From assembly GCF_045037415.1 (NCBI RefSeq), contig NZ_CP173438.1: 64,000 nt of DNA, one strand, 5' to 3'. The notes below the pieces were generated by a model, which did no database searches, was not told the origin of the DNA, and was given only the letters and a program-made list of their open reading frames with translations. Positions 7,943-8,202 of the stretch are shown here, in pieces (the stretch's first letter is position 1; every line of letters starts with the position of its first letter). The translations under genes were made by a program, and so were the position numbers. This DNA comes from Escherichia coli (GTDB taxonomy: Bacteria; Pseudomonadota; Gammaproteobacteria; Enterobacterales; Enterobacteriaceae).

Positions 7943-8202
7943 TTTTGTCTCCTAAACTAGCGTTAAATTGCTAGTAAATAATGTCAATTAGTTACATATA
8001 TTAGCAACGCCCCAACATTCATCTATTTTTTTACTCTGTAAACCATAATTATAAATAATACGGTTCAACGTGCTTCGAGGGACGCTTTTTGGCTTGTTAT
8101 TCCGCTTTAACCATGGCTTATGGCTAAGGCGGAATAACATAAAAATAACTTCATTCAATAAAATCAAAAAAGAATATATAAATACACTAAGATTTAGAGA
8201 TC

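What the first reader, a model, noticed from the sequence alone, without database searches (positions are those of the whole stretch)
8096..8138. Compound hairpin in the 260-bp AT-rich spacer between the PdxA-like gene and the MFS permease gene
A 10-bp perfect stem (GTTATTCCGC / GCGGAATAAC) encloses a loop that itself contains a CCATGG-centred palindrome. It has no adjacent U-tract on either strand, so it is not a canonical terminator; it could be an RNase processing or stability element, a protein-binding site, or a small inserted palindromic element separating transporter expression from the enzymes.
Basis: seen in the sequence. Interest (0 to 1): 0.2.

Follow-up and report, generated by a model that had tools for sequence, protein, structure and literature searches.

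The report
Orphan stem-loop between enzyme and transporter genes
A real but single-copy 45-bp near-perfect palindrome sits in the gap between a sugar-acid enzyme gene and a transporter gene in an E. coli genomic island; it is not a terminator, mobile element or known RNA family, and it most plausibly just forms an mRNA stem-loop that slows decay of the upstream message, which is ordinary.

Summary
The hairpin is real and larger than described. It is one continuous quasi-palindrome at 8095-8139, with 20-nt arms, 2 imperfect positions and a 5-nt centre. As RNA it folds at about -23 kcal/mol on either strand (z about -8).

The window is E. coli, from an island next to a tRNA-Leu gene. The element is single-copy. 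It occurs in 393 of 5426 complete E. coli genomes, always at this locus and almost invariant. It is absent from phages and from true plasmids.

It has no U-tract on either strand. It has no Rfam match at gathering score, only a 30-bit sub-threshold resemblance to the SAR11 "rhtB" hairpin.

It is not an insertion. The whole 260-bp spacer is collinear with the region upstream of the orthologous MFS gene in Leminorella and Budvicia. There the MFS gene is the first gene of another operon, and a different, shorter palindrome occupies the same patch. The enzyme/transporter junction lies about 70 nt away, in the last codons of the PdxA-like gene.

Best reading (moderate confidence): a lineage-specific stem-loop in imported regulatory DNA. 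When transcribed it acts as a U-less exonuclease barrier or processing site between the enzyme and transporter messages. A neutral mutational by-product or a vestigial operator remain live alternatives. Interest is low.

The parts
8095..8139 (-). The 45-bp quasi-palindrome. It has 20-nt arms (8095-8114 and 8120-8139) and a 5-nt centre (8115-8119). In the sense (minus-strand) RNA it forms 18 Watson-Crick pairs, one G.U and one C.A mismatch.
7943..8202 (-). The 260-bp spacer (30.8% GC). It is the imported 5' regulatory/leader region of the MFS gene, collinear with the region upstream of the MFS orthologues in Leminorella and Budvicia.
   Evidence: Alignment. Smith-Waterman score 75 against 24.8 +/- 3.5 for shuffles. 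The distal 135 nt that contain the hairpin score 45 against 21.5 +/- 3.3 (0/300 shuffles as good).
8203..9216 (-). PdxA-family dehydrogenase gene, the last enzyme gene of the cluster. Its stop codon TGA is at 8205-8203, 64 nt upstream of the hairpin on the sense strand.
6698..7942 (-). MFS transporter gene (anion/sugar-acid permease type). Its start codon lies 153 nt downstream of the hairpin. It is 93% identical in protein to the Leminorella orthologue and 86% to the Budvicia orthologue.
8211..8222 (-). Approximate junction between the enzyme module and the MFS module. Homology to the variant island of strain 100416 stops here, inside the last codons of the PdxA-family gene, and homology to the Leminorella upstream region begins.
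9294..12731 (.). The rest of the cluster: UxaA-family dehydratase (9294-10811, minus), DHDPS-family protein (10828-11727, minus) and a divergent IclR-family regulator (11895-12731, plus). The promoter region 11728-11894 has no motif resembling the hairpin arms.

Best explanation
The element is a lineage-specific, single-copy 45-bp quasi-palindrome. It lies inside regulatory DNA that came along with the MFS transporter gene when that gene was joined behind the PdxA-family gene in an E. coli island next to tRNA-Leu.

It is not mobile, not a terminator and not a member of a described RNA family.

The spacer sits in the same orientation behind the enzyme genes with no intrinsic terminator in between, so it is expected to be transcribed with them. 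The sense RNA then folds into a 20-bp stem-loop of about -23 kcal/mol with no U-tract.

The most likely consequence is that this stem-loop blocks 3'-to-5' exonucleases or is cut as a double-stranded processing site. The mRNA of the three enzyme genes would then end at, or be stabilised by, the hairpin. The transporter message downstream would have a different fate, either decaying or coming from its own promoter in the imported leader.

Shown: the anatomy, single-copy status, lack of a U-tract, collinear homology and lack of conservation of the pairing. Inferred: that it is transcribed, that it acts on RNA, and that its near-perfect symmetry arose by template switching or local selection rather than by drift.
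For: - Strong, highly non-random hairpin on the sense strand, kept in the fold of the whole spacer.
- It lies 64 nt after a stop codon in a 260-nt untranslated gap. The genes on both sides are on the same strand, and there is no intrinsic terminator.
- U-less stable stem-loops of this kind mark and protect the 3' ends of Rho-dependent E. coli transcripts from PNPase and RNase II (PMC6061677). Internal protective structures also shape differential decay within operons (PMC5927463).
- Full-length complementarity over 20 nt per arm is more than a transcription-factor dimer would need.
- The only allele variant found (strain GF131 and a metagenome contig) changes the closing G-C pair to G.U on the sense RNA. 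On the antisense strand the same change gives A.C.
- The unrelated spacer that follows the same PdxA-family gene in the variant island (strain 100416) also starts with a significant U-less hairpin (-16.6 kcal/mol, z -4.4).
- It is not an insertion and not dispersed.
Against: - No transcript data were available, so transcription, 3' ends and processing are all unobserved.
- The pairing is not conserved in the only homologous sequences. Leminorella and Budvicia form about half of the 20 pairs, near the slid-partner control values.
- In those genomes the region is a promoter/operator zone upstream of the first gene, not an intercistronic gap. The hairpin therefore cannot have originated for an intercistronic role.
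- The C-over-G enrichment expected downstream of protective stem-loops is weak: 11 C against 8 G in the first 50 nt, then C-poor.
- Fold energies are the same on both strands, so the strand cannot be assigned from the sequence.
- The E. coli copies are essentially identical, which gives no evidence of selection.
Confidence: 0.4

Rival explanations
1. A functionless by-product. The palindrome arose in one or a few steps by intra-strand template switching (quasi-palindrome 'correction') in a decaying promoter/operator region that lost its regulator when the MFS gene was transplanted. It persists only because the island is young.
For: - All 393 E. coli copies are identical or differ at one base, so the element is recent.
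- The pairing is absent from the homologous Leminorella and Budvicia sequence, even though the bases are about 67% identical and collinear.
- The upstream TGAACA/TGTTCA operator-like motif is half deleted in E. coli.
- The SorC-type regulator found next to the orthologues is not in the E. coli cluster.
- An IS1 insertion at the MFS start codon is tolerated in one strain.
Against: - Going from about 10 to 19 paired positions out of 20 by independent drift is very unlikely, so a special mechanism must be assumed.
- Whatever its origin, a -23 kcal/mol stem in a transcribed gap will have physical effects on RNA decay.
- The variant island has an analogous hairpin at the same place.
Confidence: 0.3
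2. A DNA-level protein-binding palindrome. It would be an operator, or a remnant of one, for a regulator of a promoter that serves the MFS gene. It would be the positional successor of the short conserved palindrome in Budviciaceae.
For: - In Leminorella and Budvicia a 10-bp perfect palindrome (TGTATTATTG-N8/N6-CAATAATACA) occupies the position of the E. coli left arm. Its arms are conserved and its centre varies.
- That palindrome is too weak as RNA to be a structure signal (-11 to -13 kcal/mol, z -1.8 to -2.7).
- Palindromic TGAACA..TGTTCA sites lie in the same zone, about -240 to -180, in Mixta and Pantoea orthologues.
- The E. coli hairpin lies at -197 to -153 from the MFS start codon.
Against: - Arms of 20 nt with a 5-nt centre are much longer than a typical operator.
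- The arms do not resemble the Budviciaceae palindrome, of which only 5 of 10 pairs are kept in E. coli.
- They do not resemble anything in the IclR-DHDPS promoter region of the same cluster.
- No copy exists elsewhere in the window or the genome.
- No sigma-70-like promoter is detected on the minus strand of the spacer.
Confidence: 0.15
3. A non-canonical, leaky transcription terminator or attenuator. It would lower read-through from the enzyme genes into the transporter gene without a U-tract.
For: A strong stem-loop lies after the last enzyme gene, with genes on the same strand on both sides.
Against: - The sense strand continues AAGCCAAAAAGCG and the antisense strand continues ATAAAAATAAC.
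- T-runs precede and A-runs follow the stem on both strands, the reverse of a bidirectional terminator.
- The scan finds no terminator here.
- Efficient intrinsic termination in E. coli needs the U-tract (established knowledge; PMC6061677).
Confidence: 0.05
4. A member of a repeated or mobile palindromic family (REP/BIME, ERIC, MITE, integron attC, or an IS end pair) inserted between the genes.
For: Palindromic shape. The surrounding island is full of IS fragments. REP/naRNA4 copies occur elsewhere in the window.
Against: - There is one locus per genome in 393 genomes; the reported two 'places' are the two strands of the same site.
- Nothing was found in phages, and the only plasmid-collection hit is one 834-kb record that looks like chromosomal sequence.
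- There is no Rfam hit at gathering score.
- The region is collinear, without a gap, with the homologous region in Leminorella.
- The ends GTTATTC and GAATAAC do not fit the attC core sites GTTRRRY and RYYYAAC (read from the sequence).
Confidence: 0.02

Closest known systems
U-less protective stem-loops at the 3' ends of Rho-dependent or processed E. coli transcripts, and intra-operon decay barriers (Dar & Sorek 2018, PMC6061677 and PMC5927463; classically, REP stem-loops such as malE-malF)
   Same: A stable stem-loop with no U-tract. It lies in untranslated RNA shortly after a stop codon, between co-oriented genes, with a slight C>G bias in the first 30-50 nt downstream.
   Different: - No mapped RNA end.
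- The stem (20 bp, -23 kcal/mol) is longer than typical terminator-like stems.
- The downstream region is AT-rich and mostly C-poor.
- Unlike REP it is single-copy, and it is not conserved in orthologous sequence.
RNase III intercistronic processing hairpins (for example rpsO-pnp, rnc leader, phage T7 R sites; from established knowledge)
   Same: About two helical turns of nearly perfect double-stranded RNA with one internal mismatch, lying between cistrons.
   Different: No cleavage evidence and no conserved family. This is a resemblance of shape only.
Rfam RF01814 'rhtB' element of 'Candidatus Pelagibacter ubique' / SAR11 (Meyer et al. 2009, PMC2704228)
   Same: A single bulged hairpin in AT-rich flanks. 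It shares the apical sequence CUUAGCCAU...GGUU and 6 of 9 outer-stem positions, with the 3 differing outer-stem pairs changed on both sides so that pairing is kept. The full-length alignment scores 30.3 bits, E about 1e-3 for the spacer.
   Different: - Below the gathering score (55 bits).
- The family is from marine Alphaproteobacteria, and about half of its members carry a poly-U tail.
- The consensus has no match in 5426 E. coli genomes.
- No match in the orthologous loci.
- Most likely a chance resemblance.
Operator palindromes upstream of the orthologous MFS operon in Budviciaceae and Erwiniaceae (TGTATTATTG-N6/8-CAATAATACA; AAATGAACA-N5-TGTTCATTT)
   Same: The same position relative to the MFS start codon, and homologous surrounding sequence.
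   Different: Different arm sequence, different axis (about 10 nt apart) and twice the arm length. The cognate SorC-type regulator gene is not in the E. coli cluster.

Membership tests
Intrinsic (Rho-independent) terminator | G+C-rich stem-loop immediately followed by a U-tract | tested here: not met
   The stem is present, but the 3' flanks are AAGCCAAAAAG (sense) and ATAAAAATAAC (antisense). The scan reports no terminator at this site.
REP/BIME, ERIC and other dispersed palindromic repeats | Many copies per genome that share a consensus | tested here: not met
   One locus per genome in 393 genomes and none in the other 5033. No other copy in the window. naRNA4/REP models hit elsewhere in the window but not here.
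MITE / IS-derived or otherwise inserted element | Present as an insertion relative to homologous 'empty' sequence | tested here: not met
   The 45 bp align collinearly (only 1-nt indels, about 67% identity) with Leminorella. The distal spacer containing the hairpin scores 45 against 21.5 +/- 3.3 for shuffles.
Rfam RF01814 rhtB element | Covariance-model score at or above the gathering threshold (55 bits) | tested here: not met
   30.3 bits.
Rfam RF01814 rhtB element | Occurrence in SAR11-type genomes next to rhtB/proC/liv genes | tested here: not met
   The host is E. coli, and the flanking genes are a PdxA-family gene and an MFS gene.
U-less protective 3' stem-loop / intra-operon decay barrier | Energetically stable stem-loop without a U-tract in a transcribed, untranslated region | tested here: met
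   -23.1 kcal/mol on the sense strand, z -7.9. It lies 64 nt after the stop codon and has no U-tract. Transcription itself is inferred.
U-less protective 3' stem-loop / intra-operon decay barrier | C-over-G enrichment (rut-like) immediately downstream | tested here: inconclusive
   9 C against 7 G in 30 nt and 11 against 8 in 50 nt, but 12 against 15 in 80 nt.
U-less protective 3' stem-loop / intra-operon decay barrier | Steady-state RNA 3' end mapped just downstream of the stem, dependent on PNPase/RNase II | not testable with these tools
   No transcript-end data were found for this locus.
RNase III processing site | About 20 bp of double-stranded RNA | tested here: met
   A 20-position stem with 18 Watson-Crick pairs, 1 G.U and 1 mismatch.
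RNase III processing site | Staggered cleavage in vivo or in vitro | not testable with these tools
   This needs 5'/3' end mapping in rnc+ and rnc- strains.
Transcription-factor operator | Arms conserved and centre free across orthologues | tested here: inconclusive
   This holds for the short Budviciaceae palindrome. The E. coli copies show no variation that could test it.
Transcription-factor operator | The same motif at other sites controlled by the cluster's regulator | tested here: not met
   No match with one mismatch or fewer in the IclR-DHDPS promoter region, and no inverted repeat there.
Integron attC site | RYYYAAC ... GTTRRRY core sites | tested here: not met
   The ends are GTTATTC and GAATAAC in the wrong order and composition (sequence).

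The most novel reading that the evidence does not exclude
The same roughly 45-nt patch, about 150-200 nt upstream of this MFS gene, carries a perfect palindrome of at least 10 bp in each lineage examined. The palindromes differ in sequence, axis and length between the E. coli island and Leminorella/Budvicia. This could mean that the locus needs a hairpin or cruciform at that position regardless of sequence: a structure-specified regulatory element of the transporter leader that is rebuilt by template switching.
Probability: 0.08. Interest if true: 0.4.

Novelty: new member of a known kind. Interest (0 to 1): 0.12.

Why it matters
If the stem-loop does set the 3' end or half-life of the enzyme message, it would be one more example of differential mRNA decay setting enzyme-to-transporter ratios in a horizontally assembled catabolic cluster. 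That cluster sits in an island carried by ST131-type strains.

The more useful result is negative. The element is not a new repeat family, riboswitch or mobile element. The spacer is better understood as a transplanted promoter/leader region of a Budviciaceae-like MFS operon. That affects how expression of this transporter should be interpreted.

Tried and rejected
1. **Rfam at gathering score** on the whole window found nothing at the site. A permissive scan gave only the 30-bit rhtB resemblance and microRNA-like noise. The rhtB consensus is absent from E. coli genomes and from the orthologous loci. The family is a SAR11 hairpin of unknown function. Rejected as a chance resemblance.
2. **Dispersed repeat.** E. 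coli genomes, plasmids, phages and the window itself all gave a single locus.
3. **Looking for closer relatives** that would show covariation.
   - A genome-collection scan with the MFS protein, a protein search and a metagenome scan with a conserved 22-mer at the MFS start were run.
   - They returned only identical E. coli-type copies, one allele with a terminal G-C to G.U change, and Leminorella/Budvicia. Nothing lies in between.
   - L022, whose MFS protein is 96% identical, has an identical spacer.
   - More distant orthologues (Gilliamella-like, Sodalis, Mixta, Pantoea) have no detectable homology in the hairpin region.
4. **IclR-operator idea.** No shared motif with the cluster's own promoter region.
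5. **Promoter and terminator scans.** No minus-strand promoter-like site and no terminator at the hairpin.
6. **Leader-peptide idea.** A 15-codon ORF (ATG at 8154) runs through the left arm. It has no Shine-Dalgarno sequence and no counterpart in Leminorella or Budvicia. The 72-aa ORF at 7988-8206 has no Pfam match.
7. **Recombination-scar idea.** The module junction is at about 8211-8222, roughly 70 nt from the hairpin.
8. **Literature.** No transcript-end data were found for this locus.

Full report
**Observation.** The sequence at 8096-8138 is as described. GTTATTCCGC (8096-8105) pairs with GCGGAATAAC (8129-8138).

The repeat finder extends this to arms of 20 nt (8095-8114 and 8120-8139), 90% complementary, around a 5-nt centre. 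The inner CCAT/ATGG pairing lies on the same axis as the outer stem. The 'CCATGG-centred palindrome in the loop' is therefore an incidental reading of one continuous quasi-palindrome.

- As RNA it folds at -23.2 kcal/mol (+ strand) and -23.1 (- strand), against -6.7 and -5.9 for dinucleotide shuffles (z about -8, 0/200).
- With DNA parameters it folds at about -15 kcal/mol (z about -7).
- It survives in the MFE and centroid folds of the whole spacer RNA.
- Each strand has one wobble and one mismatch, so the sequence does not say which strand matters.
- No T-run follows the stem on either strand. T-runs precede and A-runs follow it on both strands, the reverse of a bidirectional terminator.
- Perfect inverted repeats of at least 10 bp are enriched in this window generally (12 against 1.4 in shuffles). 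Most of the others look like terminators.

**Context.** The window is Escherichia coli. A 2.7-kb query around the site is 100% identical to many complete genomes.

The genes are all on the minus strand:
- DHDPS-family (10828-11727)
- UxaA-family dehydratase (9294-10811)
- PdxA-family dehydrogenase (8203-9216)
- the 260-bp spacer (30.8% GC)
- an MFS permease (6698-7942)

A divergent IclR-family regulator lies at 11895-12731. The cluster sits among IS fragments next to a tRNA-Leu gene and an integrase remnant. This fits the GI-leuX island described for ST131 (inference).

**Copy number and distribution.**
- The 63-nt hairpin region occurs in 393 of 5426 E. coli genomes. It is always one locus, scored twice because it is palindromic. 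392 copies are at least 99% identical.
- The plasmid collection gave one 834-kb record that looks like chromosomal sequence. Phages gave only noise.
- The window has no second copy.
- The single allele variant (strain GF131 and metagenome contig L023) changes the 3'-terminal C of the sense-strand stem to U. That gives G.U on the sense RNA and A.C on the antisense strand. This hints at the sense strand, but it is one event at a terminal pair.

**Known families.** No Rfam family reaches its gathering score at the site.

A permissive scan gives RF01814 'rhtB' at 30.3 bits against a threshold of 55 (E about 1e-3 for the spacer). The match includes a shared apical sequence, CUUAGCCAU...GGUU. That family is a bulged hairpin of unknown function from 'Candidatus Pelagibacter ubique' and marine metagenomes, and about half of its members carry a poly-U tail (PMC2704228). 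Its consensus has no match in E. coli genomes, and the model does not hit the orthologous loci. I treat this as a chance resemblance.

**Origin of the spacer.** In a variant of the island (strain 100416) the regulator and three enzyme genes are 95-100% identical in protein. Nucleotide homology stops inside the last codons of the PdxA-family gene, at about 8211-8222. An unrelated 301-bp spacer, a different MFS gene and an amidohydrolase follow.

The MFS protein of the window is 93% identical to one in Leminorella grimontii and 86% to one in Budvicia aquatica (nucleotide identity 83.5% and 73.8%). In both genomes it is the first gene of a different operon (MFS, then a PdxA paralogue of about 39% identity, then Dak1/Dak2). 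That operon is transcribed divergently from a SorC-type regulator.

The entire E. coli spacer, right up to the PdxA stop codon, aligns collinearly with the region upstream of those orthologues:
- Leminorella: Smith-Waterman score 75 against 24.8 +/- 3.5 for shuffles.
- The distal 135 nt that contain the hairpin: 45 against 21.5 +/- 3.3 for Leminorella, and 41 against 22.5 +/- 3.7 for Budvicia (0/300 shuffles each).

The 45-bp palindrome aligns with only 1-nt indels and about 67% identity. The hairpin is therefore not an insertion and is not at the recombination junction. It lies within a transplanted promoter/leader region.

**Conservation of the structure.** On the four-row alignment the 20 pairs of the E. 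coli hairpin are formed in 19 of 20 positions in E. coli. Only about half form in Leminorella and Budvicia. Overall 71% of cells pair, against 29-50% when the partners are slid.

The Budviciaceae instead have their own 10-bp perfect palindrome (TGTATTATTG-N8 or N6-CAATAATACA). It sits under the E. coli left arm, with an axis about 10 nt away. Its arms are conserved and its centre varies. As RNA it has only -11 to -13 kcal/mol. E. coli keeps 5 of its 10 pairs.

Upstream of it lie TGAACA/TGTTCA palindromes, which recur in the Mixta and Pantoea orthologues. One half of that motif is deleted in E. coli. More distant orthologues show no homology here. Searches for intermediates found none.

**Mechanism.** Moving from about 10 to 19 paired positions out of 20 within collinear, 67%-identical sequence is not what independent drift gives. 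Either template switching created the symmetry in one or a few steps, or pairing was selected (inference).

In E. coli the spacer follows the enzyme genes on the same strand with no intrinsic terminator, so it should be transcribed with them (inference). [quoted passage not shown] It also matches the internal structures that cause differential decay within operons (PMC5927463). By size it could also be an RNase III substrate (established knowledge).

- Supportive but weak: the unrelated spacer of the variant island also begins with a significant U-less hairpin right after the PdxA-family gene.
- Against: the C-over-G signal downstream is marginal, the pairing is not conserved, and there are no transcript data.

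I put about 0.4 on an RNA-level barrier or processing role, about 0.3 on a functionless by-product, about 0.15 on a DNA-level operator or its remnant, about 0.05 on a leaky non-canonical terminator, and about 0.02 on a mobile or repeated element.

**Verdict.** The 'inserted element' reading is refuted, and the terminator reading is correctly excluded. The stability/processing and protein-binding readings remain untested. The element is an orphan, lineage-specific stem-loop of a familiar kind in a mosaic island, and its interest is low.

Noticed in passing
window 7940-7947 (strain WP4-S17-ESBL-03, L002 2349-3116): In one E. coli genome a 768-bp IS1 is inserted with an 8-bp target duplication exactly at the MFS start codon. 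This separates the gene from its Shine-Dalgarno sequence and from the spacer with the hairpin.
   Followed up: partly
window 6600-6935: About 1000 other E. coli genomes, including K-12, keep only this piece at about 94% identity. It holds the last 238 nt of the MFS gene plus the adjacent transposase remnant. The transporter, with its spacer and hairpin, has therefore been truncated in most lineages.
   Followed up: no
L003 5688-5988 (E. coli strain 100416): A variant island has the same regulator and enzymes, but an unrelated 301-bp AT-rich spacer after the PdxA-family gene, followed by a different MFS gene and an amidohydrolase. That spacer has its own U-less hairpins: GCAGATAATA-N33-TATTATCTGC (-16.6 kcal/mol, z -4.4) and a 20-nt-arm inverted repeat at 5815-5858.
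   Followed up: partly
L004 3758-3823, L005 3758-3826, L007 3782-3804, L008 3796-3820, L009 3798-3822: Palindromes of the type TGAACA...TGTTCA (AAATGAACA-N5-TGTTCATTT in Mixta) recur about 180-240 nt upstream of the MFS orthologues. They are a candidate operator of the operon's regulator. One half-site is deleted in the E. coli spacer.
   Followed up: no
window 5152-5193: A 14-bp perfect inverted repeat, ATTAATATCCTCCA-N14-TGGAGGATATTAAT, lies just beyond the truncated PTS IIC pseudogene. It is stronger than the hairpin under study.
   Followed up: no
window 15573-15621 and 32989-33032: Two further perfect inverted repeats with long loops and no terminator-like flanks. One is TGTTGGTACA-N29-TGTACCAACA, next to the tRNA-Leu gene at 15748-15829. 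The other is CATTACAAAACT-N20-AGTTTTGTAATG.
   Followed up: no
window 14401-14540 (+), 21844-22038 (-), 39584-39699 (-), 22872-23045, 49876-49953, 56111-56189: Rfam matches at gathering score: a group II intron D1-D4 domain inside the island, Ysr276, the Mg2+ (mgtA-type) riboswitch, and four naRNA4/REP copies.
   Followed up: no
window 8078-8156 (-): A sub-threshold (30.3-bit) full-length alignment to the SAR11 'rhtB' hairpin model. It includes an identical CUUAGCCAU...GGUU apical segment and three outer-stem pairs changed on both sides so that pairing is kept. It is probably coincidence but unexpectedly specific.
   Followed up: partly
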